Positions 1,369-51,682 of a stretch of 51,682 nucleotides of DNA are shown here, one piece after another. The notes beneath the pieces are model-generated. The model was not told where the DNA came from. It did not search any database and was given only the letters and a program-made list of their open reading frames with translations. The DNA is from a virus (taxonomy: Duplodnaviria > Heunggongvirae > Uroviricota > Caudoviricetes), in the IMG/VR virus record IMGVR_UViG_2651869781_000017, positions 1-51,682 of that record. One strand, written 5' to 3'. The translations under genes were made by a program, and so were the position numbers. Position 1 is the first letter of the stretch. Each line of letters begins with the position of its first letter.

Positions 1369-1444
1369 GCCGATATAGCTCAGTTGGTAGAGCAGCGCAT
1401 TCGTAATGCGAAGGTCGGAGGTTCGACTCCTCTTATCGGCACCA
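1369..1444 (+). tRNA. thrW: tRNA-Thr (anticodon CGT)
   Basis: 76-nt sequence GCCGATATAGCTCAGTTGGTAGAGCAGCGCATTCGTAATGCG...GGCACCA with cloverleaf-compatible arms and CGT anticodon; immediately 3' of proA. Confidence 0.9.
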
Positions 1445-1445
1445 T
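1399..1445 (+). repeat. attL core: 47-bp direct repeat (3' half of thrW) duplicated at 41393-41439
   Basis: Exact 47-bp match ATTCGTAATGCGAAGGTCGGAGGTTCGACTCCTCTTATCGGCACCAT at both positions; flanking bases differ. Confidence 0.85.
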
Positions 1446-37927: not shown

Positions 37928-38025
37928 TTCGCTTGGATGCGGCAAAGAAATCAAAACAGTGAAGCCCCAACTGCGGGAACAGTCAGGGCTTCGGTATCGT
38001 AAAACCACGCATAGGAATTAACGAC

Positions 38026-39049: not shown

Positions 39050-41179
39050 ATGACAGATATCACCGCAAATGTTGTGGTAAGCATGCCTTCGCAACTCTTC
39101 ACTATGGCTCGTTCTTTTAAAGCCGTAGCTAATGGCAAAATTTATATCGGAAAAATTGACACTGACCCGGTAAATCCAGGAAACCAGATCCAGGTTTATG
39201 TGGAGAACGAAGATGGCTCTCATGTTCCTGTTTCGCAACCAATCATCATTAACGCTGCCGGATATCCGGTATATAACGGACAGATTGCCAAATTCGTTAC
39301 CGTGCAAGGCCATTCTATGGCTGTTTATGATGCATATGGTGCGCAGCAGTTTTATTTTCCTAATGTGTTGAAGTATGATCCTGATCAGTTTAGTTTGAAG
39401 CTATCCATGCCTGATGGGGCAGGTGAAATTGGATATCAATATAGAAATAATGTTACATCTTCTTACCGAAGAGTAAACGACAAGCTTGATGAGCATGTCA
39501 GTATTCTGGATTTTCATAGAAATGTTGATGGTGGGTTAATCCTTCCTGCACAGAATGTTGATAGTAGACCATTCTTTGAGCGAGCACTTGTATACATTGA
39601 ATCAATAGGCGGTGGCACTATTTATGTACCGGCTGGAAAATACTATTTAAATTCATACAGTGAAATAGGGATCATAGGCACTGTCTTTAATGCAATATTG
39701 CCACTTTGCGATAATGTTAAAATTTTATTGGATACAGCGGCAGAAATAGTTGTCGGTACTTTTTTTGATGACAAGCCTTTCCAGTTGTTTTTTGGTTCTT
39801 CGCCTTTGAAACCAAATCTTGTAGACGCTGTAAATAATGTTGTCATAGAAGGTGGTACAATTAGCTTTAGTGGTTATAGCAGTATGATGAGAACAGCACC
39901 ACTAAACAGAATTGCATTGCAGACAGGAAATATAGATAATCTTCGCATATCAAATGTTACCTTTCGTGATGGTGACTTAACAAACGCTTTAGCGATAGGA
40001 TACAAAAATCTAGGCAAATATGCAGTTGTTGAGAATTGCAACTTTATTGACCTTATTCAGAACGGAATGAATAACGATCATAGTAGTATCTACCTTAATG
40101 CGTCACACTCTACAATTAATAATTGCAACTTTATTTCCACGATAGATAAAGGAAGGAAGATCGCTTGTGCTGTTGAGTTGCATAAATCTTTCAATAGTTG
40201 GATTGGTGGTAATGTTGATGGCTATACACGTGGTGCTTTTATAAACGCTATTGATACTGAATCATCTCTTGTAGAAAACACCAGAATTGAATCAGTTACC
40301 GCTAGAATACTACACCAGTTTGTAGCGTACTCGTTCGGTTCTAATGGGGTTATAAGAAATAGTCTTGTTTCAGGAAATAATGTAACAACTCTTGCGAGAA
40401 GTTCATCCGATACAGATCCTTCAGAATTTGGACCTTGCAGTCTCTGCGGTTGGGTGTCATATGGTAGTTTTGCAAATGCAGAAGGCCTAAATATCGTAGT
40501 TGAAAATAATACATACATTGTTGATGAATCAGTACAAGATTCATATAGTTGCGTATTTTATGCAATCGCAAATGTTTCAGGTGTTACTGTTCGTAGAAAC
40601 AGTGTTGGAGCGAGAACTTTTTTCTACAACCCAACCCCATCACTAAATCTTTACAATTGCCATTTTTATGAAAACAGGTTTGAGGAATCGTATGTACAGA
40701 GCGGTTCAGAAAGATTTTTATATGATCTTAACTGTAATCGTATTTCTCAAAGCACTTTCGAAGCATTTGTTCCAATAAAAACAACTGCACTGACAGGAGT
40801 TATGAGGATTGACCCATCTACGCTCGGTCCGCAGAATCGTTTTGTTGTCGATACTCAGAATACAGATAATATTGAACACCCATTTATTACAAATTTGCCA
40901 GGTTTGCTCGGGCAGGATGGTACAACTTACTCATATCCGCAAAAATGCGATGTCAACATCGGAGTTGGTTCTACACCTGTCCTATCTGTGATAAGTCCGG
41001 AAATAAGCACTGTAGACAGAGGACAGATTCTTAACAACGCGAACCTTCCATCTGGTTATGTCGCTCCGTCGTCGTTAATGAAGTACGATTCTACGCTTAC
41101 AGGAGCTGGTGTCACAGTATCAGGGACGCCATCCGGTAATTATCATGACGTGAGGATTCTACTGATAAGAGAACGTTAG
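39050..41179 (+). CDS. tailspike protein (P22-type N-terminal head-binding domain plus distinct receptor-binding domain)
   Basis: N-terminal 110 aa [34 protein letters not shown]...VLKYDPDQ matches P22 gp9 head-binding domain; rest diverges. Confidence 0.88.
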
Positions 41180-41392
41180 ATAGGTCTTGCGCAGGGACGC
41201 GCAAATCATTCGGGATTGCAAGGCTTTGTGCTCTTCTGTTGATGTGTGTCTACATGTTTGAAGATCGTTGTGCCGTATTTGTGACATACACATGACAACA
41301 TCATGCATCAACTTTCTGTTTGTGCCATCAACTATAGCTTAGTGAATGCGGTTAATGCTTGCTAAAACAGATAGTTATGATTGGTGCTACAT

Positions 41393-41439
41393 ATTCGTAA
41401 TGCGAAGGTCGGAGGTTCGACTCCTCTTATCGGCACCAT
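41393..41439 (+). repeat. attR: duplicated 3' 47 bp of thrW
   Basis: Exact copy of 1399-1445; lacks the tRNA 5' half so it is not a functional tRNA. Confidence 0.85.
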
Positions 41440-42263
41440 CAAGAAAATCAATAACTTAGCTTAACTTCTCTAAGAAATTGTATCTTCTGTTATCACTTAC
41501 AAACGCCTATACGTTGTTATGGGCTTTTGGTAGTTTAACACGTATGGGCGAGTAGTTCCCAGGCTCAACCTCGTAACAAGTTCCTTTGAAGCTGGAAGAC
41601 GTGCCACCGTCTCTAAACCTTCTACCAAAACTCTTAGCAAGATGTTCCACACCTGGCGCGGTGTCCAATGATGCTACACGTCGTGAGACGTTGCAGAGGA
41701 TAAACAGGCTAAATGATGGGAAGAGTTTTAAGTGCAATAGTGGATTAAAGCCCACCTCTTCAAAACCTAACTTGATCGGGAAAGAATCAAGCTCTAGCAC
41801 GGTTTCGTCCACCGGAGTACAACGGGTGCCTGATAAGAGAAGAACTGCTAAGACTTCATAGCTTTTGTGAAAAAGCCCTTTTTAGTGGATACGCCTACGG
41901 CGCTTATTTTTTGGTATAACCATCAAAGGCGCTTTATGGCTCCTATTGTCTTGAAAATGTATCTTTACTTGTATTGTGTTTTATGCGTAGTCTCCCTGTG
42001 TAGTATGTAACTTGTTAATTTTCATATGAATACAGAGGCACACGATGAAAAACATTGCAGCTATCAAACGTAATAACCGCAAGATTCACGCTCGTAAGTT
42101 CCTGTCTACGCCAGAGGGAAAAGCCTGGCTAGAGCGTAAACAGCGAGAGAACGAAGAAAGAAAACTCCTTAGTGAGTTGAAATGGCTTAAGGATTGAATC
42201 ACCAGTAGGCGCATAACACATCCAGCGATCAAAGATGTGTTTATGCGCCTGATAGTGAAATTA

Positions 42264-42422
42264 TTAAAGTTTTTTAGTTAATGTAGCCATTGCATGAACG
42301 ATGATCGCTAGTGAATCGATTTTATCTCGAGGGGTAAAATAGATGAGGTATATGATGGTAACAATTACAGCTAAAGTAATTGTGGTTCTGCAGGTTTTTA
42401 AAATGGATGAGATAAAGCGCAT
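42264..42422 (-). CDS. small hydrophobic protein (52 aa)
   Basis: ORF with G-rich RBS; single hydrophobic helix (TITLAVIVTIIYLIYF). Confidence 0.3.
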   Translation of the reverse strand: MRFISSILKTCRTTITLAVIVTIIYLIYFTPRDKIDSLAIIVHAMATLTKKL

Positions 42423-42748
42423 AGATACCCCCTATTGATTTAACAATAGCAAAGTATCATTTATTTTTTATTGCACGCAACATGCAAATTTTCACATATA
42501 ATAGTTTACTATTCACTTTGTATGGTGTCAACAAGATGATGTGTTGTTTTGTTTGATTTGTTCAAGATAATGTTTCATTTTCTCATCTATATAACTTGTG
42601 TTTTAGATAATTTCACTAATTGTAAAAGTTACGTATTGCTTAATAGCTACCTTTTTATCTGAAATCGGCGCAGACGTGATCAATGTTTAACGCGAAGATC
42701 AGCGGCGTCAGGTCCACGCAGCGACAATTCTCAAATATCAAGGAGGCA

Positions 42749-43288
42749 TTACGCCTCCTCTTCTTCCTTCTTGATACGTTGCACCGTTGAAGGAGCAACA
42801 TTAAAGCTCTCGGCGGTTTTACGCACTGACAGGCCATCAGAAAGGGCTTTCTTTATACCTTCTCGATCCACTGCTTTTCCATTACCACGTTTTGTAGGAT
42901 TGACGGCTTGCGCTTCTCGTTTACGTTCTAACATCAGTTCACGTTCACACGTTGCAACTGCCGACAACATCGTAAGCATCATCTTTCCCATCGCGCTTGT
43001 AATGTCTGCAATGATTCCTTCTTTGTGAAATCGAACAATTACACCTCGATTATTAAGTTGTTCAACTAAAGCAAGGATGTCTAAGGTGTTACGTCCTAAA
43101 CGGTCGAGAGAGTGCACGTGTAAGGTGTCGCCTTCTCTCAGATAGGCTAAACACGCTTGTAAGCCTGGGCGGTTAGTGTCTTTACCAGACAGCTTATCTT
43201 CAAAGACTTTATCGAGAGTTACTCCTGCAAGCTGGCGATCAGTGTTCTGATCTACAGTGCTCACACGCTTATAACCGATATTGCTCAT
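42749..43288 (-). CDS. small serine recombinase (resolvase/invertase family)
   Basis: 179 aa; catalytic N-terminus GYKRVSTVDQNTDRQ, LDRLGRN motif, C-terminal HTH. Confidence 0.85.
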   Translation of the reverse strand: MSNIGYKRVSTVDQNTDRQLAGVTLDKVFEDKLSGKDTNRPGLQACLAYLREGDTLHVHSLDRLGRNTLDILALVEQLNNRGVIVRFHKEGIIADITSAMGKMMLTMLSAVATCERELMLERKREAQAVNPTKRGNGKAVDREGIKKALSDGLSVRKTAESFNVAPSTVQRIKKEEEEA

Positions 43289-43940
43289 AAAATCCTCTTA
43301 ATGTGTCGATTTGGCACTACTTCAATGCAAATGAGTATACCGTATTCATTTGGTCTGTTTCAAGCCTTATGGGTACGGAATATTACACGATTTAGCTGTA
43401 TTCATTTGGTATGCCTAATGGATACACAGGGGGATAGATTAAATGTTGTTCTGTTTATACAGGTTTATTTGTTAGATCAACAATTTGGCATTTCTAAACA
43501 GATGTTTGAACGTTGCCAAATGTCTTGACAACACAAGAAAAGGGCTTGCTATGCCACGCATTACACGAAATAAGGCTATAAAAACAAAATAAATTTTAAA
43601 ATTTGCACAAACGAGAGAACTCATTCGACAAATAATAGATTAATTTTTAGCCAACAATTTATGATGGTGCTCTGTAAGCCGCACTACACAAGGATTTGCG
43701 AAAGTGATGTAAAAGTGAAGAAAGTGAGAATTGCCCTTTTAAGCTACTTTTTCATTGAATTTTTAGTATGGAATTACACAGGGAATAGAGAGCATTATTC
43801 TATGATTTACACAGGGAATATAGGGGGATTATGGCACACACATAGAAAGGCATTACACAGAGTGCTATGTGACAAATGGATGTAACGAGAGGTTACATTC
43901 AGCTATCTGAAATGCTCTCTGTAAGAAAGTTGGTAGTAAC

Positions 43941-44052
43941 GGTAGGTCACTGTGAACTAGGGGGGGTAGTTCACTATGAGCTAGGGGGGTAGTTCACTAT
44001 GAGCTAGGGGGTAGGTCACTGTGAACTAGGGGGTAGGTCACTGTGAACTACA
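43941..44052 (+). repeat. five tandem 22-24 bp iterons (GGTAGGTCACTGTGAACTAGGG family)
   Basis: Five direct repeats in two sequence variants, followed by an A/T-rich tract with a (TA)n run near 44100-44127. Confidence 0.8.
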
Positions 44053-45152
44053 ATAAGACTATTAATAAAACTATATTAGATTATTAATTAGATCATAATA
44101 ATAATATTCTTTATATCTATATATATATATATGATCTTTTGCCTTTCGGCGTTAGCTCCACTCTCTGGCAAGCAGCCTTACTCCGCTACCTTTCGGGCTA
44201 CGTTGGCTGGCCTCGTTCCGCTCACACCGAAAGCAAAGCGTTACTTTCTTCGTGTAACTATCGTTGGCGATAACGCCCACGAAGAAATACTATTGCGCTG
44301 TGCGCAGTAAGAGTAATCACCTAACCAATCATACTGATTGCTTACGTGTTAACTCTATCTCTCTACCTCGTAATTACCCTCCTACACTTAATAACTCTCG
44401 TTATTCTCTGTAGTTGTGTAATTACTCGAAGAGAGAGCGGCTAAAGCTCAATTACACTCTGCTTTCCTCGTGTAATTTCACTAAGCCTCAATACAATTCC
44501 ACTTCCTACATTCTGTAGTCGTGTAATTGTTTTCGGTGGAAAAGCCAGAGGCGACACCGAAAGAGAATTCTGATCTTATTAATCTTATCTATCTTAGTTA
44601 ATCTTCTTACTTACTTTATCTACTTTATTATTAATAATAGCTTTATAAGCTCTCTGTAGCTCTCTGACGCAAGAAACAGCATTCAGGAAGGGAATCACCT
44701 TAGAAAAGTGTTCTTTGCGTCATAATGTGTTTTATGAAGGATTCAGAGGTGTTTCATAACAGGAGTGTATAGAGGATACTTTAATTAATTAAAAATAAGG
44801 GGTCTAAATGCTTCTCTAACAGCATTAAGCAGGGTAGGGAATGGAAACGCATTGCCTACATATATAAGCTCACTACAGGGCTTTACAGAGCGTTTTATAA
44901 AGTGACTCTCTATCTTATATCTACCATTACCTTTTCATATACCTAACAAATACAAAATAAGCCCCTTAAATAAGCCTCTGGCGAGCTAAACAGCCATTAG
45001 ATAAGGGAATGTATTGCTTTTATCAAAATCTCGTTAGAACGCGTTTTAGAGCGTTTTAGCGGATAATGAAGAATAGCACTACACAGAAGAGCACGAATTG
45101 CTAAGAAAAAATGTAAGTGCATGAAAAAGATCAGATTTTTTGTGAAAAGGTA

Positions 45153-45181
45153 TTGACAAATGTTTCTTTATATGTAATAAT
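45153..45181 (+). promoter_or_regulatory. sigma70-like promoter (TTGACA, 17 bp, AATAAT) upstream of 45292 operon
   Basis: Consensus -35 with 17-bp spacer to an A/T -10 hexamer. Confidence 0.45.
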
Positions 45182-45291
45182 AGGTATTAGAGGGACAGAA
45201 AAACATTCTTCTCTAAATAATCAAAATCAATGCACTTTGAAGCCGTCAGGCTTGCAAGGTGTTTTTCTTTTAACTGAATAAGGAGTTTTTT

Positions 45292-45480
45292 ATGAAATGG
45301 TTTACACCGGAACACGTCGTCGCGGCATTTAAAAAAGGTGAGCTAACACGCCACCAAGTAGTAATGAATCGTAATATGGCAAGGAGTCGAGGTTATCCAG
45401 AGCGTGAAAAATGTTTCGATGCAGCACTAAAAATTATTGATGAACTAAGAAAAAATGAAAAAGAATCTGAAACAGAGTAA
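45292..45480 (+). CDS. hypothetical small protein (62 aa)
   Basis: ORF with AGGAG RBS. Confidence 0.4.
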   Translation: MKWFTPEHVVAAFKKGELTRHQVVMNRNMARSRGYPEREKCFDAALKIIDELRKNEKESETE

Positions 45481-45499
45481 AGAATAGAAGGAGAAAACT

Positions 45500-45667
45500 A
45501 TGAGCGAAACTAAGAAACCAATTCCGCGCACTTACCTACACGTTGACCCTGAAATCTTCAAGGTTTTATTTGCTGAAGCCAAGAAAAGGCAAATTATGGT
45601 CAGTGATTTGATGTTAGAAATCATTACTGAAGCAGCAGAGAACATCAAACAAAAAAAGGGTAAGTGA
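45500..45667 (+). CDS. putative ribbon-helix-helix DNA-binding protein (55 aa)
   Basis: Beta-strand then two helices pattern (RTYLHVDPEIFKVLFAEAKKRQIMVSDLMLEII); GGAG RBS. Confidence 0.4.
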   Translation: MSETKKPIPRTYLHVDPEIFKVLFAEAKKRQIMVSDLMLEIITEAAENIKQKKGK

Positions 45668-45718
45668 TCCTCATTCACTTTAGTAGCGCATTAAGCGTGA
45701 TTTATAAGGAGATTTTTA

Positions 45719-46411
45719 ATGATTAATCAACTAACTTTTACAAAACACTATGACACGTTTGATAATGTATCAAAGATTTATTCTGATAAATTCCCTCAAG
45801 GAAAAGATTTAGATCTATTACATATTGTGCTTTATTTTCGATTCCTTAGTTATCAGGAAAACAACCTTAATTGTTATGAAAGTCACGAAACATTAGCTAA
45901 GATTTTTAAGTCTTCAGCGTCAACAATTAAACGTAAGATAAACGATCTTAAAGAGATGGGATTATTAGAAACATCCCCACATCCTGATCCGTATATTTCA
46001 TCTTTGATTTACAATGCTCTCCCTCTCACAGATGCACATATTACTCCCCCAGGAGAATCATCACTCTCTGATCTTTCTGAGGCAGAAGAAGCACAGGAAC
46101 AACCTAAAGGCCATAAACAGCCTTCTTTTGATGTTCTTGATGATGATTGGGATACGCCTTTACCCTGGGAGACGGAAGAAACACCTGTTTCATCAAGTGA
46201 AAAGGTAGCTAATGATAATGAGGAGGATGTGTTAGAGAATTTTGCCTCTCTTATCATCCAGGAGAAGACTACAAGAACAGGAGGGGCATCATTTATTGAG
46301 TTTGCAAATTCACTAGCTTATAGACACGGGCTAAAACGACCAAATGGTATTGAGGCATATTTTTCTAAGCATTACCCAAATGTGTATGAAGACTTTGATA
46401 TTCCATTTTAA
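45719..46411 (+). CDS. hypothetical protein with N-terminal HTH and acidic linker (possible replication or regulatory protein)
   Basis: 230 aa; HTH-like segment (HETLAKIFKSSASTIKRKINDLKEMGLL); AGGAG RBS. Confidence 0.4.
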   Translation: MINQLTFTKHYDTFDNVSKIYSDKFPQGKDLDLLHIVLYFRFLSYQENNLNCYESHETLAKIFKSSASTIKRKINDLKEMGLLETSPHPDPYISSLIYNALPLTDAHITPPGESSLSDLSEAEEAQEQPKGHKQPSFDVLDDDWDTPLPWETEETPVSSSEKVANDNEEDVLENFASLIIQEKTTRTGGASFIEFANSLAYRHGLKRPNGIEAYFSKHYPNVYEDFDIPF

Positions 46412-46422
46412 TAAGGAGGGTT

Positions 46423-46701
46423 ATGATTCAATATTTAGTAAAAAATCAAGTAGACAGAATTCAGTGTAATGACACAGGAAAACGCATCTACGAAACACTT
46501 GCTTACCTCTATAAAGGAAAGCCAACACCGCTAAAATATAGCGATGTGTTACACCGAGCAGGGTGCTCTGAAGATGGTTTAAAATTCTGGCTGAAACAGC
46601 TATCAAATTTCGGTGTTATAGAGATTAAAGAATTATCTTTCTCTACATTCAATCTCAAAAGACTGGATAAAGAAATAGTATTCATCTATTCCACTCTCTA
46701 A
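46423..46701 (+). CDS. hypothetical protein (92 aa), possible winged-helix
   Basis: ORF with GGAGGG RBS. Confidence 0.35.
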   Translation: MIQYLVKNQVDRIQCNDTGKRIYETLAYLYKGKPTPLKYSDVLHRAGCSEDGLKFWLKQLSNFGVIEIKELSFSTFNLKRLDKEIVFIYSTL

Positions 46702-46833
46702 AATCTCTCTATGTAATTAAAATATAAAAGGAAAACATTATTATGATAGTAGCTATGTATTGGTTATTGTTCTTTCTCACGTTAGAAACATATTTCGGGG
46801 TGTTTTCCTTTAAAAGAAAAGGAAAAGTAAATA

Positions 46834-47241
46834 ATGGCAAAAAGAAAAAACAACGTTGTTAAGAAAATCGGTGATTCAGCTTCTCTTCTAAGTAAACCTA
46901 AATCTATTCTAAGACGTAAAGACTTTAAAGAGCTAGTTACGCTCTCCAAGCAAAATAGCGCCCCTGGCGAATGGAAAACAGAGATCATAGAACATTCTCC
47001 CTCTGTGCCTTGTGGAGATGAATTTAACGCCTTACAAGAAATCTTATCTTCAACACCTGGCGTATTCTGGAAACCTAGAAAAAGAAAAGAGTATATTGTT
47101 GATAGCTCTGATTTACGCAAATACCAGATTTTAGGATTTGAAGACTATAACCACTACGTTGGTTATCTCGCCACCAATGGCCTAAATAATTTAGTTCCTG
47201 AATTCCATTTAGATAATGATGATCACTATGGAGACTTTTAA
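46834..47241 (+). CDS. hypothetical basic protein (135 aa)
   Basis: ORF with AAGGAAAAG RBS. Confidence 0.35.
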   Translation: MAKRKNNVVKKIGDSASLLSKPKSILRRKDFKELVTLSKQNSAPGEWKTEIIEHSPSVPCGDEFNALQEILSSTPGVFWKPRKRKEYIVDSSDLRKYQILGFEDYNHYVGYLATNGLNNLVPEFHLDNDDHYGDF

Positions 47242-47242
47242 T

Positions 47243-47578
47243 ATGAACAAAAACACGTATGACACAATTTATTCACTAATTAATTATTATGAGGATGATT
47301 ACCTCCTGCCTTTAAACCGTGCTGAACTTGAAGCACACAAAAACTCCACGCCAGCGGCACTAAATGAGGCGTTTAAACACTGGGATTTAGCTGTGAATGC
47401 CTTTGAGATGCTCTGTAAGCGTGTAGAGATGCTCTGTAAGCGTGAAAACGCATACCTGACAGCCGATCAGATATGGGAGCTATCAAACTGGATAGAAGAT
47501 ATTGAATCTGATGTTCGCTATGTGGGAGATGGCCTTATCGAACTCGCTCAACGCTTAGCTGTTATCACAGAAGAATAA
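47243..47578 (+). CDS. hypothetical protein (111 aa) containing a 21-bp tandem duplication
   Basis: ORF contains in-frame direct repeat GAGATGCTCTGTAAGCGTG x2 (EMLCKRVEMLCKRE). Confidence 0.35.
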   Translation: MNKNTYDTIYSLINYYEDDYLLPLNRAELEAHKNSTPAALNEAFKHWDLAVNAFEMLCKRVEMLCKRENAYLTADQIWELSNWIEDIESDVRYVGDGLIELAQRLAVITEE

Positions 47579-47607
47579 AAAAAGCAACAAAAAAGTTGTA
47601 AAATATC

Positions 47608-47636
47608 TTGACATTTCATCTATTGTATGTTAATAT
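47608..47636 (+). promoter_or_regulatory. near-consensus sigma70 promoter (TTGACA, 17 bp, TAATAT)
   Basis: Exact -35 consensus, 17-bp spacer, strong -10; upstream of 47922-49540 gene block. Confidence 0.55.
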
Positions 47637-47921
47637 AATTATATAGGGTGATTATTTTTCCTTTATTGGTTCGATATTAAAAATTCTTCTTGTCGTTAAA
47701 GGGGAGTAAAATCTCCGCTCCCCGCTTCTCCTCCTCCTTAAGTGTCATTATTACCTCTTTTTTCCTTTGTTATGCATACATCTTGGAGTATGCATAACAT
47801 AGGGTAATTACATAGGTACAAGTTAATAAAAGGCGGCTCTAAATGCTGCCTTTTATTTTGCCCGTTATACAACTTAAAAGTTGTATTTCTTACTTTAAAC
47901 AAGGTAACAAGGTTTATATAA

Positions 47922-48134
47922 ATGTTGTTCTTAAATGATAAAGAGCAAATCATCAAGTATCGCGATGAAATGCTAAAGATCAATCCACAAATTACCGAAA
48001 TGGTAGCTAAATACGCTGGGTGTTCTGTCGAGGAAGTAGAAAGATGTGTTGAAAAATATTTTTCTCCTTCTTCTCCGTCTACACCTTCCCTTAATGAATT
48101 AATCAAATTAAAAGCTAAGGAGATTACTAAATGA
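47922..48134 (+). CDS. hypothetical protein (70 aa)
   Basis: ORF; stop overlaps next gene start. Confidence 0.35.
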   Translation: MLFLNDKEQIIKYRDEMLKINPQITEMVAKYAGCSVEEVERCVEKYFSPSSPSTPSLNELIKLKAKEITK

Positions 48135-48493
48135 TTATTGATTTAGACACTCTGTTTCCAGTTCGAAAGACTTTCACAGATATTGTAAGTTATTGTACTG
48201 ATCCGTTTGCCTCTGTAGAAAACAAGGTTTTTGCTTCTCTTCCTGCTGATGTTGAATGCGGAGACTTGATCACCAGCACTGGCGCTAAATATGTATCAGG
48301 AGATGATATCTATGTTGTTATGAGTGAATTTGTAACGGCTGGAGACAACAAGCCTGTAGATGTGCTACGTAGCAATGCTGGTCTTGTCTGCATCAAAGCT
48401 GATGCGCTGAATGCTGTAAGTGAAGCAGCAAAAACAGCATTAATTAAAAAAGGCTTCCAGCTTGAAGGCTTCCACTCTGTTTTCACTTCTTAA
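48131..48493 (+). CDS. hypothetical protein (120 aa), possible virion accessory or decoration protein
   Basis: ORF immediately upstream of capsid-like gene. Confidence 0.3.
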   Translation: MIIDLDTLFPVRKTFTDIVSYCTDPFASVENKVFASLPADVECGDLITSTGAKYVSGDDIYVVMSEFVTAGDNKPVDVLRSNAGLVCIKADALNAVSEAAKTALIKKGFQLEGFHSVFTS

Positions 48494-48511
48494 TAAAAGG
48501 AATAATAATAA

Positions 48512-49540
48512 ATGATTCTAGGTAATGATTACGTTGATTTAGCTCCTTTGTTCTCTGCGCATAGCACTAGAAACTATCTGCTTTCTACTCTCGACTTCAC
48601 TGATCCGGTGGGCGTTAGTTCTCATAAAGTAGCTGTTTCCCAGCTTGTCGAAAGCAACGAATCTCTCTTTAACAAAGAGACAAGCCGTTTTAGTTCTGAA
48701 CACAATGTTACTAAGCGAGAACAAGGTAAAGAATGGCTGATTGAAATCCCTTACTTCCTGCGTGAAGATGTGATCCGTCCTTCTGATGTTCAAGGCAAAC
48801 GTAAACCTGGCACTGATTTTCAGGAAACACTCACTGATATTTATGCTGACTATGTTGCTAAACACCACGTAGCGTATCAGCGCACTAAAGAAAGCGTATT
48901 GGCTGCATCTCTGTTTAGCGGTAAAACTTACACGCCTAAAACTGATGATGTGTTAATTGAGTGGGGCAAGCTGTTTAACGTATCAGCTATGAAAGCCACT
49001 GTGAACGCTTCCAGCACTGACACCACGAAGATTTTTAAAGAATTTGATCAGATTGCTACTGACATTATCGAGAAAGCACAAAGCCAGGCGGCTGCTGTAG
49101 AGCGTATTGTTGTTTTCTGTAAGCCGGAAGCCTTCTCTGCAATTCGATTCTCTGCGGGTATGGCAAACGCATTCCAGTATGTAAGCCCACTGGAAGAAGG
49201 GAACGTTGTGTATCAGCGTCGTGACCTGCTACCAGGAGTGACAGCGTTCACTATTCCAGGAACTAACATTGATGTTATTAAACTGGTAGATCCGCTACAC
49301 CTTGCACATATGACCGCTGACGCTGTAGCCGTGCCTAAATTCGCTAAAGGCTCTAACGTCTACCAGGCCATCTATGGGGCGGCTTCCAGCACCTTTGAAC
49401 TGATCAATGCCGCTCCTGCTGAGGTTTACAGCTACAGCTATGAATCTTCTCGTGGTGATGCTGTTAACGTTGTTACAGAGAATAGCCAGATGGTTGTAAA
49501 CCACGGTGTAGGCTTCTCCGTTCAAATCACTGTTAAATAA
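48512..49540 (+). CDS. putative major capsid protein (possible T7 gp10-like, HK97 fold)
   Basis: 342 aa; local resemblance to T7 gp10A (ours RIVVFCKPEAFSAI versus T7 RVFYCDPDSYSAI) and similar length; from memory only. Confidence 0.4.
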   Translation: MILGNDYVDLAPLFSAHSTRNYLLSTLDFTDPVGVSSHKVAVSQLVESNESLFNKETSRFSSEHNVTKREQGKEWLIEIPYFLREDVIRPSDVQGKRKPGTDFQETLTDIYADYVAKHHVAYQRTKESVLAASLFSGKTYTPKTDDVLIEWGKLFNVSAMKATVNASSTDTTKIFKEFDQIATDIIEKAQSQAAAVERIVVFCKPEAFSAIRFSAGMANAFQYVSPLEEGNVVYQRRDLLPGVTAFTIPGTNIDVIKLVDPLHLAHMTADAVAVPKFAKGSNVYQAIYGAASSTFELINAAPAEVYSYSYESSRGDAVNVVTENSQMVVNHGVGFSVQITVK

Positions 49541-49625
49541 TATTTAACGTGTAATAGAGGCGTGGCGTGTATTCACGCTTCGCCTTTTTTTTATTTATTT
49601 TTAAATTTTGAGAGGTGATTAAAAT

Positions 49626-49829
49626 ATGGAAGTGATTCTGAAATCAAAAAATGGTGTCCACGTACATTTAGATGCTAATGATTCTAGAGGCTTGTTAAAT
49701 CTGAAATATCTATGTTCTCTCTTAGATGTTCCATATGAAGGAGTAAAAGCCCGTATGTTCAGACTAAACGAGAGTATTGATCAGGCTCTACACCATTTCT
49801 TAAGTAAAGAAGGTGGTAAAAATGATTAA
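49626..49829 (+). CDS. hypothetical small protein (67 aa)
   Basis: ORF between capsid-like gene and large downstream ORF. Confidence 0.3.
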   Translation: MEVILKSKNGVHVHLDANDSRGLLNLKYLCSLLDVPYEGVKARMFRLNESIDQALHHFLSKEGGKND

Positions 49830-49843
49830 TAAGGGGATTTTAA

Positions 49844-51682
49844 ATGTTAGAAATTAACACTTCTAAAATTAAGAACACAGTTACATTTAGTGTAGATAAA
49901 GACAGCTTGAAAAAAGCGAAAGACTCTATTACAGGCTTAAAGGAATTCGCAGAAAATATCAAGCCTGCTAAATTAAGATTTGATACTGTCACTAAAGGCT
50001 ATAAGAAAGCACAAAGTGAAGTAGATAAGATTGCTCAACAGAAAGCGAAAAACGAAAAACAGAATCAAAGAGCACAAGCTGCCGCAGCAAGAGCACAGGC
50101 AAGGCAACAGCAACAAATAGCAGCACGTAAGGAGAAAGCTGAACTAAAGCTTTTAGACGTTGGATCAAGCATTAGTGCAATGCACCGTCTTTCTGTAGCT
50201 GAACAATACAAAGCTATTGCACAGGCTAGAGAGATAGCAAAACAATATGAGCAAGGGGCTATCTCGCTTGCACGTATGAATAGCCAGATGAAACGCTTAC
50301 AACAGCAACAACGTAAGATTAATGGCAACAGAAAAGCTCAATTAGCCCCCGTTAAGGGAGGATCAGGGAATTCCGCCACTATGGGCGCTCTGTTATTTGG
50401 AGGCGCTACGGCGGCTGCTGGCGTGATGGCTGTAAGTAAAACCGCCGAGTTTGTTAGTAAAAGTTTCGCTAACGCAGAGACACAAGGAGAATTAATCCAA
50501 CGTGCAAGGCTTGGCGGTGTAGACGTTAACCAGATGTATAACATTACAGAATGGGCGTATAAAAACGGCGTTGACTCTATGATGGGTGATCAAGGGGCTA
50601 GAAAATACCTGGATCAGATGAAAGATGTTAGGGAACGTGCTACCAAATCTTATGACGAGGCTGAATATGTAGTTGATAAGAAAACAGGGAAAGGCATATG
50701 GAAAGGCGGTGATAACGGTATTAATGAACTTCTAAACATCGGTGTTATTAACAAAAGCGACCTTAAAAAATTTGCTGATAATCCAGCCGGATTAATTTCT
50801 AAGGCTGTTAATGGAATGATGAAAAAAGGGTTTTCAGATTCTCAAATTGGACAACGTTTAGAAGACCTGGGCGATGATTTGATGCTTACGTCAAAATATT
50901 GGCAACGTTCCGTTAAAGATGTACAAGAAAGTATTAATCAGCAAAAAGCCTCTGGAAAATGGCTAACAGAAACACAGCAAGACTCTATCGTTAAATTCAG
51001 AGAACTAAACAGACAGCTTTCGCAGCTTTCTGATGCAAGACAAGTAGCATTTGTAGACGGGTTTATGAAATCTCTCGATCCAAAAGTAACGGAAGAGTTT
51101 TTGAAAAACCTTTCTAATCTCACTCCGTATTTTACGAAGCTGGGAGAAGCTACAGGAAGTCTCTTTGAAGCTATTATGAAGATTGTAAACTGGTTTAATC
51201 GTAATGATGATAAGACAGAGGCTATTCAGAAAAATTTAGGTGATGCACCGCCATTAAGCAATGAAGGAATGAAACAGAATCTTTCTAATCTCGTTCCTGA
51301 CCAATATAAAGGCGCTGGCACTGCAACAACTACACCTGATAATAGTCATTCTCTCTTTAACACGATTAAGGGATTGCTTTTCGATGATAAATCTTCTGTG
51401 TCAGATGTAAAAATGTCAGTCAGCGAAGCACCGATAACCAATCTCAAACAGGGTGCTTTAAATAATCTTGCAATGACAACTCCGGCTTATAATTTATCTC
51501 CTGTATTCAATCTGAATCCGACATTTGAAGTGGTAACGGAGGTTCCGCTTACTATTAATTCTGACACGTCCAGATTAAGCGATTATGTGGATTTTACAGC
51601 GAGAGCAAGTCGGGATAGCTTCTTGAAATCATTAACATTAACCAGCTTATCAGGACAATCTAACGGCGGGGAATTCCCGCCA
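49844..51682 (+). CDS. large coiled-coil protein, 3'-truncated by window end (at least 613 aa)
   Basis: Open frame from ATG 49844 to window end with no stop (absent from ORF track because no stop); Q/A/R-rich coiled coil then Gly/Ala hydrophobic segment. Confidence 0.5.
   Translation, partial: MLEINTSKIKNTVTFSVDKDSLKKAKDSITGLKEFAENIKPAKLRFDTVTKGYKKAQSEVDKIAQQKAKNEKQNQRAQAAAARAQARQQQQIAARKEKAELKLLDVGSSISAMHRLSVAEQYKAIAQAREIAKQYEQGAISLARMNSQMKRLQQQQRKINGNRKAQLAPVKGGSGNSATMGALLFGGATAAAGVMAVSKTAEFVSKSFANAETQGELIQRARLGGVDVNQMYNITEWAYKNGVDSMMGDQGARKYLDQMKDVRERATKSYDEAEYVVDKKTGKGIWKGGDNGINELLNIGVINKSDLKKFADNPAGLISKAVNGMMKKGFSDSQIGQRLEDLGDDLMLTSKYWQRSVKDVQESINQQKASGKWLTETQQDSIVKFRELNRQLSQLSDARQVAFVDGFMKSLDPKVTEEFLKNLSNLTPYFTKLGEATGSLFEAIMKIVNWFNRNDDKTEAIQKNLGDAPPLSNEGMKQNLSNLVPDQYKGAGTATTTPDNSHSLFNTIKGLLFDDKSSVSDVKMSVSEAPITNLKQGALNNLAMTTPAYNLSPVFNLNPTFEVVTEVPLTINSDTSRLSDYVDFTARASRDSFLKSLTLTSLSGQSNGGEFPP

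What the first reader, a model, noticed from the sequence alone, without database searches (positions are those of the whole stretch)
42264..43460. Serine recombinase with upstream repeats and a neighbouring small hydrophobic ORF
The 179-aa resolvase/invertase-type recombinase (42749-43288) is followed 5' by short direct repeats (TATTCATTTGGT at about 43340 and 43390; TTATGGGTAC and CTAATGGATAC) that could be its res or crossover site. Downstream on the same strand is a 52-aa single-helix hydrophobic ORF that could be a toxin-like or membrane peptide. Together with the iterons this looks like a plasmid-type maintenance cassette.
Basis: partly seen in the sequence, partly recalled or inferred. 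Interest (0 to 1): 0.35.

Follow-up and report, generated by a model that had tools for sequence, protein, structure and literature searches.

The report
Resolvase gene with its res site
This is an ordinary, intact resolvase-type DNA recombinase sitting next to its own three-part target site (res) inside a small phage-satellite-like island integrated at the E. coli thrW tRNA gene, and the neighbouring 52-codon membrane-peptide gene is a separate, freely exchangeable module of unknown function.

Summary
A 179-aa small serine recombinase gene (42749-43288, minus strand) is preceded by short repeats and followed by a 52-codon hydrophobic ORF.

The repeats are the six 12-bp half-sites of a Tn3/gamma-delta-style res site (43303-43425, 123 bp). 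They form three inverted pairs:
- Site I: 28 bp, spacer 4, central AT.
- Site II: 35 bp. It lies 21 bp from site I.
- Site III: 36 bp. It lies 3 bp from site II.

The recombinase promoter lies inside sites II and III. A matrix built only from relatives picks out exactly these six sites. The layout is conserved, without indels, in relatives with 60-83% protein identity. One of these relatives is a ~4.3-kb circular replicon.

The setting is not a plasmid. It is a ~12.5-kb island at thrW, in tandem with a P22-like prophage. The island carries iterons, a Rep-like protein, a capsid protein, a tape-measure-like protein, a Dit-like protein and a tyrosine integrase.

The most likely role is autoregulated resolution of multimers of the excised, replicating island. 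This role is inferred.

The recombinase slot has three states in E. coli: type 1 in 155 genomes, type 2 in 294 and none in 332. ORF52 has three alleles that reassort independently of the recombinase. It is an orphan, and toxicity is untested.

Verdict: an ordinary new member of a known kind.

The parts
42749..43288 (-). Small serine recombinase (resolvase type), 179 aa. It has a catalytic domain with the Ser10 nucleophile, the YxRVS motif and the DRLGR motif, plus a C-terminal HTH (…STVQRIKKE).
   Evidence: ORF. Pfam PF00239 at 7.5e-34, plus weak HTH_7/HTH_38 matches below Pfam's cut-offs. Aligns end to end with gamma-delta/Tn3 resolvase at E=4e-29, and with Gin/Hin at 4e-26. PHROG_125.
43398..43425 (-). 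res site I, the predicted crossover site. On the + strand it reads GTATTCATTTGG-TATG-CCTAATGGATAC: 28 bp with a 4-bp spacer. The central dinucleotide AT is at 43411-43412.
   Evidence: Half-sites score 16.5 and 15.3 bits with a matrix trained on relatives. It is the only inverted pair with a 4-bp spacer in the window or in the whole island. It occupies the same position relative to the ATG in L097, L098 and L099. Its length and spacer equal those of Tn3/gamma-delta site I (PMC9943657).
43342..43376 (-). res site II (accessory). It reads GTATTCATTTGG-TCTGTTTCAAG-CCTTATGGGTAC: 35 bp with an 11-bp spacer. The spacer contains the -35 hexamer of the recombinase promoter.
   Evidence: The -35 hexamer TTGAAA lies at 43363-43358.
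43303..43338 (-). res site III (accessory, next to the gene). It reads GTGTCGATTTGG-CACTACTTCAAT-GCAAATGAGTAT: 36 bp with a 12-bp spacer. The arm nearer site II overlaps the -10 hexamer.
   Evidence: The -10 hexamer TATACT lies at 43339-43334.
43334..43363 (-). Sigma-70-type promoter of the recombinase gene, TTGAAA-18-TATACT, embedded in res sites II and III. The SD sequence AAGAGG follows at about 43292-43297.
   Evidence: Promoter scan, 10 of 12 matches. The GGCTTG (-35) and TATACT/TAAACT (-10) blocks are conserved in the relatives.
42264..42422 (-). ORF52, a 52-aa protein with one hydrophobic helix and its own expression signals. It is an independent module.
   Evidence: ORF. A 36%-identical allele B keeps exactly 52 codons, an ATG and a strong SD although the DNA is too diverged to align by blastn. 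It is an orphan in protein libraries of 5.8 billion and 1.84 billion sequences.
42503..42531 (-). Promoter of ORF52, TTGACA-17-TAAACT. The predicted 5'UTR is about 73 nt, and its hairpin pairs with the SD.
   Evidence: Promoter scan. The core GTGAATAGTARACTATTA is conserved between alleles A and B. The SD is sequestered in the minimum-energy folds of both alleles through different sequences.
42199..42258 (.). Long hairpin between the convergent ORF50 and ORF52 genes, probably a bidirectional terminator.
   Evidence: Inverted repeat I18. Invariant between alleles A and B. Forms the 3' stem in the fold.
42045..42197 (+). ORF50, a conserved 50-aa basic protein at the left end of the island. Its function is unknown.
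   Evidence: 96-100% identical in all island variants examined. Annotated as WP_000788776.1. No family hit.
43941..44140 (.). Iterons (5 copies of 22-24 bp, 43941-44055) followed by an A+T-rich stretch with a (TA)10 run. This is the probable replication origin of the island and is not part of the recombinase module.
   Evidence: A Rep-like HTH_36 protein lies at 45719-46411. The iteron side is retained in variants without a recombinase.

Best explanation
The gene encodes a catalytically intact small serine recombinase of the resolvase type. The 123 bp just upstream (43303-43425) are its cognate res site.

The site has three dimer-binding subsites, each an inverted pair of 12-bp half-sites with consensus CYWWATSNNYAC. 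Site I (28 bp, 4-bp spacer, central AT) is the crossover site and lies farthest from the gene. Sites II and III are accessory sites. They overlap the -35 and -10 of the recombinase promoter, so the protein should repress its own synthesis.

The module sits in a ~12.5-kb island integrated at thrW, which has its own iteron origin and Rep-like protein. In the chromosome there is one res copy, so nothing happens there. When the island is excised and replicates as a circle, dimers carry two res copies in direct repeat. The resolvase would then synapse them, cut and exchange strands at the centre of site I, and return monomers, as in plasmid or cointegrate resolution.

Shown here:
- The protein family and conservation of the catalytic motifs.
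- The six half-sites, their clustering, their pairing geometry and their conservation in relatives.
- The promoter overlap.
- That there is a single res in the island.

Inferred:
- Binding, autoregulation and resolution activity.
- That the island replicates as a circle.

ORF52 is a separate small gene. It has its own promoter, SD and terminator, is probably translated, and encodes a membrane peptide of unknown role.
For: Protein:
- PF00239 at 7.5e-34 plus weak HTH matches below Pfam's cut-offs.
- Full-length alignment to gamma-delta/Tn3 resolvase at 4e-29, with the Y6-R8-S10 and DRLGR motifs aligned.

Site:
- A matrix trained only on relatives gives six hits of 13.2-16.5 bits at 43303-43425. 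Only two other hits of at least 12.9 bits occur in the 51.7-kb window.
- The cluster has 6 hits, against a maximum of 2 in 200 shuffles.
- The six hits pair as three (-)(+) inverted repeats with spacers of 4, 11 and 12 bp. These are the only such pairs in the window and in the complete island of strain E3.

Comparison with relatives:
- The same half-site positions relative to the ATG (-137/-121, -88/-65, -50/-26) occur in relatives at 82-83% identity (L097, L098) and 68-69% identity (L099-L101). Each element has its own half-site variants.
- The res region aligns without indels.
- L099-L101 are circularly permuted ~4.3-kb contigs with terminal overlaps, that is, a small circular replicon.
- The I(28)-20/21-II(35-37) layout also holds for the 60-62% identical recombinases in L104, L106, L001 and L103 (the L104 site I was read by eye).

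Agreement with the known system:
- Tn3/gamma-delta res has 12-bp DBD sites with spacers of 4 (site I), 10 (site II) and 1 (site III) (PMC9943657).
- Here the site I length is identical. The I-II centre distance is 52.5 bp, against 53 bp in gamma-delta; the gamma-delta gap lengths are from my own knowledge.

Promoter and replicon context:
- The promoter TTGAAA-18-TATACT lies inside sites II and III.
- The island has iterons, an A+T-rich region and a Rep-like protein.
- Plasmid-borne small serine recombinases with 106-119-bp res sites (ParA-MRS, CinH-RS2) are established multimer-resolution or deletion systems (PMC5698047).
Against: - No experiment was done, and there is no direct evidence that the island exists as a replicating circle.
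- About 42% of islands of this family carry no recombinase at this position: 332 genomes, against 155 with type 1 and 294 with type 2. The function is therefore dispensable for the island.
- A packaged satellite would normally use concatemers, for which resolution is not obviously useful.
- Site III differs from Tn3: its spacer is 12 bp instead of 1 bp. In the type-2 relatives the two gene-proximal half-sites are direct repeats. The synapse geometry therefore cannot simply be copied from Tn3.
- Arg2 of the Tn3 regulatory interface is Ser here (the role of R2 is described in PMC9943657).
Confidence: 0.6

Rival explanations
1. Passenger module. This is a functional or recently functional res/resolvase cassette picked up from a plasmid or transposon. 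It now does nothing for the island beyond repressing itself, because a chromosomal island never presents two res copies.
For: - The slot has three states, and 332 island-bearing genomes lack any recombinase there.
- The left arm of the island is a mosaic of exchangeable segments.
- The closest non-E. coli relatives sit on small contigs, including a ~4.3-kb circle.
Against: - The ORF and all six half-sites are intact and 93-99% conserved in 155 genomes.
- A second, 62%-identical recombinase with its own matching sites occupies the same slot in 294 genomes.
- Related Dit/TMP islands from other samples also carry a 60%-identical recombinase in the same divergent position.
- This recurrence argues for selection.
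Confidence: 0.2
2. Cassette or element shuffling. The resolvase recombines site I with a matching site on another element, such as a helper phage, a sister island or a plasmid. This would form and resolve cointegrates, or swap the left arm of the island.
For: - In the 200 or so genomes without the type-1 module, homology to the window begins at 43416-43423. That point is inside site I, 4-11 bp from its central AT.
- A copy of a related island lies in an IncF plasmid next to sopAB.
- Resolvase-mediated exchange at res is known for mer transposons (my own knowledge; Kholodii 2001 is cited in PMC5698047).
Against: - The breakpoint is not exactly at the crossover dinucleotide.
- The sequence on the other side in the recombinase-less variant is not a recognisable half-site.
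- For the type-2 module, homology resumes about 230-260 bp upstream of the ATG, not at its site I.
- The breakpoint coincides with the start of another conserved repeat motif (TACACAGGG), which could explain it.
- No second res or site-I-like pair exists in the window or in the island.
Confidence: 0.1
3. DNA invertase. The recombinase flips a DNA segment, acting as a phase or host-range switch as Hin, Gin, Cin and Pin do.
For: - PHROG_125 is labelled 'DNA invertase'.
- Gin and Hin are almost as similar to this protein as the resolvases are, at 4e-26 against 4e-29.
- A tailspike gene lies 1.6 kb away.
Against: - Only one cluster of binding sites exists. There is no second crossover site in inverted orientation anywhere in the window or the island.
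- A three-subsite res next to the gene is the resolvase arrangement.
- The tailspike belongs to a different element, the P22-like prophage, which ends at the att repeat 41393-41439.
- All 155 genomes that carry the module align across site I in one colinear piece, so no inverted variant exists.
Confidence: 0.03
4. For ORF52 only: it is the toxin of a type I toxin-antitoxin pair that stabilises the island or its episomal form.
For: - It is 52 aa with a single hydrophobic helix and a net charge of +5.
- It has its own promoter and terminator.
- The SD is sequestered by a 5'UTR hairpin in both diverged alleles, through different sequences.
- A weak divergent promoter at 42440-42467 (+) could give an RNA overlapping about 20 nt of the 5'UTR.
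Against: - It matches no toxin family in Pfam, NCBIfam or PADLOC.
- No Rfam RNA matches in 41200-45400 at E up to 1.
- It is an orphan.
- It is replaced in many genomes by an unrelated segment with a 49-aa ORF on the other strand.
- The antisense promoter is weak (9 of 12 matches), and promoter-like sites in the region are no more frequent than in shuffles.
Confidence: 0.25

Closest known systems
Tn3 / gamma-delta resolvase (TnpR) with its res site
   Same: - The protein architecture and catalytic motifs match. The alignment is full length at E=4e-29; I estimate identity at roughly one third.
- res lies directly upstream of the gene, with site I farthest from the gene and the promoter inside res.
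- There are three inverted-repeat dimer sites built from 12-bp half-sites.
- Site I is 28 bp with a 4-bp spacer and a central AT.
- The I-II centre distance is about 53 bp.
- The half-site outer end GT(R)YY(S)AT resembles the TGTCYGAT of Tn3 (from my own knowledge).
   Different: - There is no Tn3-family transposase and there are no terminal inverted repeats. The host element is an integrase-bearing island.
- The site II spacer is 11 bp, not 10 bp. The site III spacer is 12 bp, not 1 bp, so site III is 36 bp, not 25 bp.
- The linker between helix E and the HTH is about 6-10 residues shorter than in the type-2 relatives and in Tn3.
- Residue 2 is Ser, not Arg.
Plasmid multimer-resolution systems with small serine recombinases (ParA-MRS of RK2/RP4; CinH-RS2 of Acinetobacter pKLH2)
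   Same: - A small serine recombinase (189-222 aa in those systems) acts on a res-like site of 106-119 bp next to its gene. It serves replicon maintenance and gives deletion only (PMC5698047).
- Here the recombinase is 179 aa and res is 123 bp.
- Relatives at 68-69% identity sit on a ~4.3-kb circle.
- Homologues at about 55% identity are found in Acinetobacter.
   Different: - The host is a chromosomally integrated island, not a plasmid.
- No partition genes accompany the recombinase.
Sin / beta-type resolvases
   Same: In the type-2 relatives of this recombinase (L001, L103, L106) the gene-proximal accessory half-sites are direct repeats. Sin site II is arranged the same way (PMC9943657).
   Different: - The window's own res has three inverted-repeat sites and no obvious gap for HU or IHF.
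- Similarity to Sin is weaker, at 4e-17.
Hok/Sok and other type I toxin-antitoxin loci (for ORF52)
   Same: - The peptide is about 50 aa with one transmembrane helix.
- The transcription unit is compact.
- The SD is occluded by mRNA structure.
   Different: - It matches no family.
- No antisense RNA was found.
- It lacks the conserved Hok features.
- Toxicity is unknown.

Membership tests
Small serine recombinases (resolvase/invertase family) | N-terminal catalytic domain with the serine nucleophile and conserved Arg residues | tested here: met
   PF00239 at 7.5e-34 over residues 4-128. The YKRVS(10)T and DRLGR motifs align with gamma-delta Y6/R8/S10 and D67/R68/R71.
Small serine recombinases (resolvase/invertase family) | C-terminal helix-turn-helix DNA-binding domain, with a total length of about 180-200 aa | tested here: met
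   The protein is 179 aa. HTH_38, HTH_23 and HTH_7 match residues 141-175, but all score below Pfam's own cut-offs. The alignment to the gamma-delta DBD runs through residue 175.
Tn3/gamma-delta-type res-resolvase system | res next to the gene with three dimer sites made of inverted 12-bp half-sites. Site I is 28 bp (spacer 4), site II is 34 bp (spacer 10) and site III is 25 bp (spacer 1). | tested here: inconclusive
   Three inverted pairs were found. Site I matches exactly (28 bp, spacer 4). Site II is 35 bp (spacer 11). Site III is 36 bp (spacer 12), which is clearly different (reference geometry from PMC9943657).
Tn3/gamma-delta-type res-resolvase system | The recombinase promoter lies inside res, allowing autoregulation | tested here: met
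   The -35 hexamer lies in the site II spacer and the -10 hexamer at the edge of site III. Repression itself was not tested.
Tn3-family transposon | A DDE transposase of about 1000 aa and terminal inverted repeats of about 38 bp flanking the unit | tested here: not met
   No ORF longer than 342 aa exists between 41440 and the end of the window. No transposase is annotated in the island apart from unrelated IS elements in some strains. Terminal inverted repeats were not specifically searched for.
Plasmid multimer-resolution system (ParA-MRS, CinH-RS2 type) | A resolvase plus a res of about 100-130 bp on an autonomously replicating circular replicon, active only on direct repeats in cis | tested here: inconclusive
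   A 123-bp res and a resolvase are present. The island has iterons and a Rep-like gene, and relatives sit on a ~4.3-kb circle. The island itself is only seen integrated. Activity and topology are not testable here.
Fis-dependent DNA invertases (Hin/Gin/Cin/Pin) | Two 26-bp crossover sites in inverted orientation flanking an invertible segment | tested here: not met
   There is a single cluster of sites. No other inverted half-site pair exists in the window or the island. No orientation variants exist among the 155 genomes that carry the module.
Fis-dependent DNA invertases (Hin/Gin/Cin/Pin) | A recombinational enhancer with Fis sites, usually inside the recombinase gene | not tested
   No Fis-site scan was run.
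Type I toxin-antitoxin (ORF52) | A small hydrophobic toxin belonging to a described family (Hok, Ldr, TisB, Ibs, DinQ and others) | tested here: not met
   No hit in Pfam, NCBIfam, PHROGs or PADLOC. Only its own cluster was found in the two protein libraries.
Type I toxin-antitoxin (ORF52) | A cis- or divergently encoded antisense RNA that controls toxin translation | tested here: inconclusive
   No Rfam match in 41200-45400 at E up to 1. Only a weak candidate promoter lies on the opposite strand. RNA data would be needed.
Type I toxin-antitoxin (ORF52) | Toxicity on overexpression | not testable with these tools
   This needs an expression experiment.

The most novel reading that the evidence does not exclude
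The recombinase/res unit would be one of three interchangeable states of an accessory slot in a so far undescribed family of ~12.5-kb thrW-integrated phage satellites. These carry an iteron-Rep origin, a lambda-E-type capsid protein, a tape-measure-like protein, a Dit-like protein and a tyrosine integrase, and occur in about 13% of complete E. coli genomes. On this reading, satellites with a resolvase can persist as plasmids, as P4 can. The resolvase crossover site would also serve as a junction for swapping the left arm of the satellite, including small membrane peptides such as ORF52, between satellites.
Probability: 0.2. Interest if true: 0.5.

Novelty: new member of a known kind. Interest (0 to 1): 0.25.

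Why it matters
It matters only modestly. The result gives a precise, testable map of a natural res site, with its half-sites, spacers, crossover dinucleotide and promoter overlap. The resolvase lineage it belongs to is common in Enterobacterales but has not, as far as I could find, been characterised.

Site I and the I-II spacing are Tn3-like, but site III is different. In sister types the site III half-sites are direct repeats. This makes the family a natural series for studying how accessory-site geometry evolves.

The result also flags the host island as a widespread satellite-like element with an exchangeable left arm. The recombinase itself is ordinary.

Tried and rejected
- Plasmid origin. 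Only one true plasmid in PLSDB, an IncF plasmid, carries the region, and there it is an inserted copy of a related island. The other two 'plasmid' hits are 4.8-4.9-Mb records, which are chromosome-sized.
- Phage records. There is no meaningful match.
- Invertase acting on the neighbouring tailspike. The tailspike belongs to the P22-like prophage, which is bounded by the 46-47-bp att repeats at 1399-1445 and 41393-41439. No second site exists.
- Known antisense or regulatory RNA. Rfam finds nothing in 41200-45400 at either the gathering or the E-value threshold.
- Defence-system membership. PADLOC gave no hit for the recombinase, ORF52 or ORF50; its only hit among the island proteins tested was a weak CasR-type HTH match on the Rep-like protein.
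- Relatives of ORF52. It is an orphan in both large protein searches.
- Comparative loci. The one-genome-per-species scan gave few close relatives of the recombinase. The informative intermediates came from Logan and ENA contigs. The look-up of P0008 failed.
- My first hand count of the repeat coordinates was off by 10 bp. It was corrected by script.
- A first pattern for the TTACACAGGGAATA repeat was mistyped and found nothing. It was redone.
- Literature searches for a described satellite family matching this island found nothing specific.
- The breakpoint-at-site-I idea was tested on the type-2 module and did not generalise.
Full report
**Where the finding sits**

The window is E. coli chromosome. 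proA (1-1254) and thrW tRNA-Thr(CGT) (1369-1444) are followed by a P22-like prophage. The prophage has an integrase at 1459-2619, sar RNA at 37958-38024 and a tailspike with a P22 head-binding domain at 39050-41179. It is bounded by a 46-47-bp repeat of the tRNA 3' end at 1399-1445 and 41393-41439.

The finding lies in a second element, which starts at 41440 and runs off the end of the window. In strain E3 the same element sits directly next to thrW. There it spans about 13.8 kb, including an IS2.

The island carries, in order:
- ORF50, ORF52 and the serine recombinase.
- About 1.9 kb without genes, which contains the iterons.
- Two small ORFs and a Rep-like HTH_36 protein.
- Several ORFs with no family match.
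- A Phage_cap_E capsid protein, a 611-aa tape-measure-like protein and a Dit-like protein.
- A tyrosine integrase next to yagP/paoD.

Parts of 41800-44200 occur in 727 of 5426 complete E. coli genomes. Of the 880 matching places, 879 are chromosomal. The single plasmid copy is a related island inserted in an IncF plasmid beside sopAB.

**Observation check**

- GTATTCATTTGGT occurs exactly at 43342-43354 and 43398-43410.
- TTATGGGTAC and CTAATGGATAC are at 43367-43376 and 43415-43425.
- ORF52 is at 42264-42422 (-), and the iterons are at 43941-44055.

**The recombinase**

It matches PF00239 at 7.5e-34, with weak C-terminal HTH matches below Pfam's cut-offs. It aligns over its full length with gamma-delta and Tn3 resolvases (4e-29) and slightly less well with Gin and Hin (4e-26). 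The Y6-R8-S10 and DRLGR motifs are aligned. Sequence alone does not separate a resolvase from an invertase. The site architecture does.

**The upstream repeats are a res site**

I read the upstream regions of relatives obtained from public assemblies: L097 and L098 (82-83% protein identity) and L099-L101 (68-69%). I then built a 12-bp matrix from the half-sites of L097 and L099 only.

Scanning the whole window on both strands gives six hits of 13.2-16.5 bits, all in 43303-43425. Only two other hits of at least 12.9 bits occur in the 51.7 kb. In 200 dinucleotide-preserving shuffles no 130-bp interval held more than 2 hits.

The six half-sites pair as three inverted repeats with GT-outer ends:

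| Site | Coordinates | Length | Spacer |
|---|---|---|---|
| III | 43303-43338 | 36 bp | 12 bp |
| II | 43342-43376 | 35 bp | 11 bp |
| I | 43398-43425 | 28 bp | 4 bp (TATG; central AT at 43411-12) |

Sites III and II are 3 bp apart, and sites II and I are 21 bp apart. These are the only such pairs in the window and in the complete island of strain E3.

The half-site positions relative to the ATG are the same in L097, L098 and L099, allowing a uniform 2-bp offset in L097. Within each element the half-sites resemble one another more than they resemble those of other elements. For example, L099 uses CCTTTTGAACAC twice. The res regions align without indels.

More distant recombinases at 60-62% identity (L104, L106, and the type 2 of L001 and L103) keep site I (28-29 bp), a 20-21-bp gap and a 35-37-bp site II. 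In type 2 and L106 the two gene-proximal half-sites are direct repeats.

For comparison, Tn3/gamma-delta res uses 12-bp DBD sites with spacers of 4, 10 and 1 bp (PMC9943657). Site I and the I-II distance are therefore Tn3-like, while site III is not.

The promoter scan places TTGAAA-18-TATACT at 43363-43334 (-). The -35 hexamer lies in the site II spacer and the -10 hexamer at the edge of site III. This is the arrangement that gives autoregulation in Tn3-type systems (established knowledge).

**Function**

There is a single res per island and no partner site. No colinearity break appears across site I in the 155 genomes carrying this module. Inversion or deletion in the chromosome is therefore not supported.

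The island has a plausible origin: five iterons, an A+T-rich stretch with a (TA)10 run, and a Rep-like protein. A close relative of the module sits on a ~4.3-kb circular replicon, seen as circularly permuted contigs with terminal overlaps.

Small serine recombinases with 106-119-bp res sites are known plasmid multimer-resolution systems (PMC5698047). I therefore take autoregulated resolution of multimers of the excised, replicating island as the most likely role. Binding, repression, resolution and episomal replication are all inferred.

**The module is optional and exchangeable**

Among complete E. coli genomes the slot has three states:
- Type 1 (this one) in 155 genomes.
- Type 2, at 62% protein identity and with its own half-site consensus AATCAMCAC, in 294 genomes.
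- An unrelated 384-bp filler with no recombinase in 332 genomes.

In the filler variants, homology to the window starts at 43416-43423. This point is inside site I, a few bp from its centre. That hints at exchange at res. However, the junction is not at the crossover dinucleotide, and the type-2 module does not show the same pattern. I keep this only as a minor rival.

**ORF52**

ORF52 has its own promoter (TTGACA-17-TAAACT, 42531-42503), an SD (GGGGG) and a strong downstream hairpin at 42199-42258.

A second allele (L001, L004) is only 36% identical. Its DNA is not alignable by blastn over most of the ORF. Even so, it keeps the promoter core, an ATG, a strong GGAGG and exactly 52 codons. This argues that ORF52 is translated.

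In both alleles the minimum-energy mRNA fold pairs the SD with an upstream segment of different sequence.

A third allele (L003, L083-L085, L107) lacks ORF52. It has a 49-aa hydrophobic ORF on the other strand instead.

The ORF52 alleles combine freely with the recombinase states:
- A with type 1 (the window).
- A with type 2 (L103).
- B with type 1 (L004).
- B with type 2 (L001).
- C with type 1 (L003).
- C with no recombinase (L107).

The two modules are therefore independent.

ORF52 has no family match, no relatives and no Rfam neighbour. A type I toxin remains possible but untested.

**Verdict**

The 'plasmid-type maintenance cassette' reading is only partly right. The pieces are plasmid-like functions, but they are independent modules of a chromosomal, satellite-like island, and the toxin idea has no support beyond size and hydrophobicity. 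This is a new member of a known kind and of low to moderate interest.

Noticed in passing
window 41440-51682 (continues beyond the window); L002 19642-~33483: The host element is a ~12.5-kb island at thrW. It carries an iteron origin, a Rep-like HTH_36 protein, a lambda-E-type major capsid protein, a 611-aa tape-measure-like protein, a Dit-like protein and a distal tyrosine integrase. It has no portal, terminase or tail tube. Parts of it occur in 727 of 5426 complete E. coli genomes. It looks like a phage satellite, and three literature searches found no description of it.
   Followed up: partly
window 1399-1445 and 41393-41439: A 46-47-bp repeat of the thrW 3' end bounds a complete-looking P22-like prophage (integrase, sar RNA, tailspike). 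The prophage is integrated in tandem with the island, so thrW carries two elements.
   Followed up: partly
window 43426-45291: About 1.9 kb without convincing ORFs lies between res and the rightward operon, whose strong promoter TTGACA-17-AATAAT is at 45153-45181. This stretch holds the five iterons, an A+T-rich stretch with a (TA)10 run, and several other short repeats. A gene-free gap of similar size separates the recombinase from the structural genes in the related islands L104 and L105.
   Followed up: partly
window 43774-43787 and 43807-43820 (also 43421-43434 and 43852-43861, imperfect): TTACACAGGGAATA is repeated exactly, 33 bp apart, with weaker copies. One weaker copy abuts res site I. 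Homology with the recombinase-less island variants begins at that copy. It is possibly the binding site of another regulator.
   Followed up: partly
window 42196-42725; L003, L004, L084, L107: The segment between ORF50 and the recombinase exists in three unrelated alleles in E. coli: ORF52-A, ORF52-B, and a segment with a 49-aa hydrophobic ORF on the other strand plus ATAAATAGC-type tandem repeats. The segment is a small hypervariable accessory slot.
   Followed up: partly
window 42045-42197 (+): ORF50 is a very basic 50-aa protein. It is 96-100% identical in every island variant seen and has no family match. It is the most conserved gene of the island's left end.
   Followed up: no
window 41440-42040: About 600 bp next to the attachment site are conserved at 94-98% across the islands examined, and most of the stretch has a higher G+C content (0.42-0.50) than the rest of the island's left arm. 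The stretch has no annotated gene and no Rfam match.
   Followed up: no
L099, L100, L101 (ENA and Logan contigs): A ~4.3-kb circular replicon is seen in many samples. It encodes a 391-aa protein with an HNH-like N-terminus, an HTH_23 protein, two unknown proteins, the related resolvase with its res, and a 49-aa convergent ORF. Its nature (plasmid or small phage-like element) is unknown.
   Followed up: partly
L001 (NZ_CP126938.1, IncF plasmid pEND_Eco 19019-1) 7616-17571: A copy of a related island (ORF50, ORF52-B, type-2 recombinase, capsid gene), interrupted by an IS3 element, lies immediately downstream of sopAB. This is the only plasmid-borne copy found.
   Followed up: partly
window 42741-42759: A 7-bp-stem hairpin (AGGAGGC-GTAAT-GCCTCCT on the minus strand) encloses the recombinase stop codon. 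It is conserved next to both recombinase types and may act as the gene's terminator.
   Followed up: no
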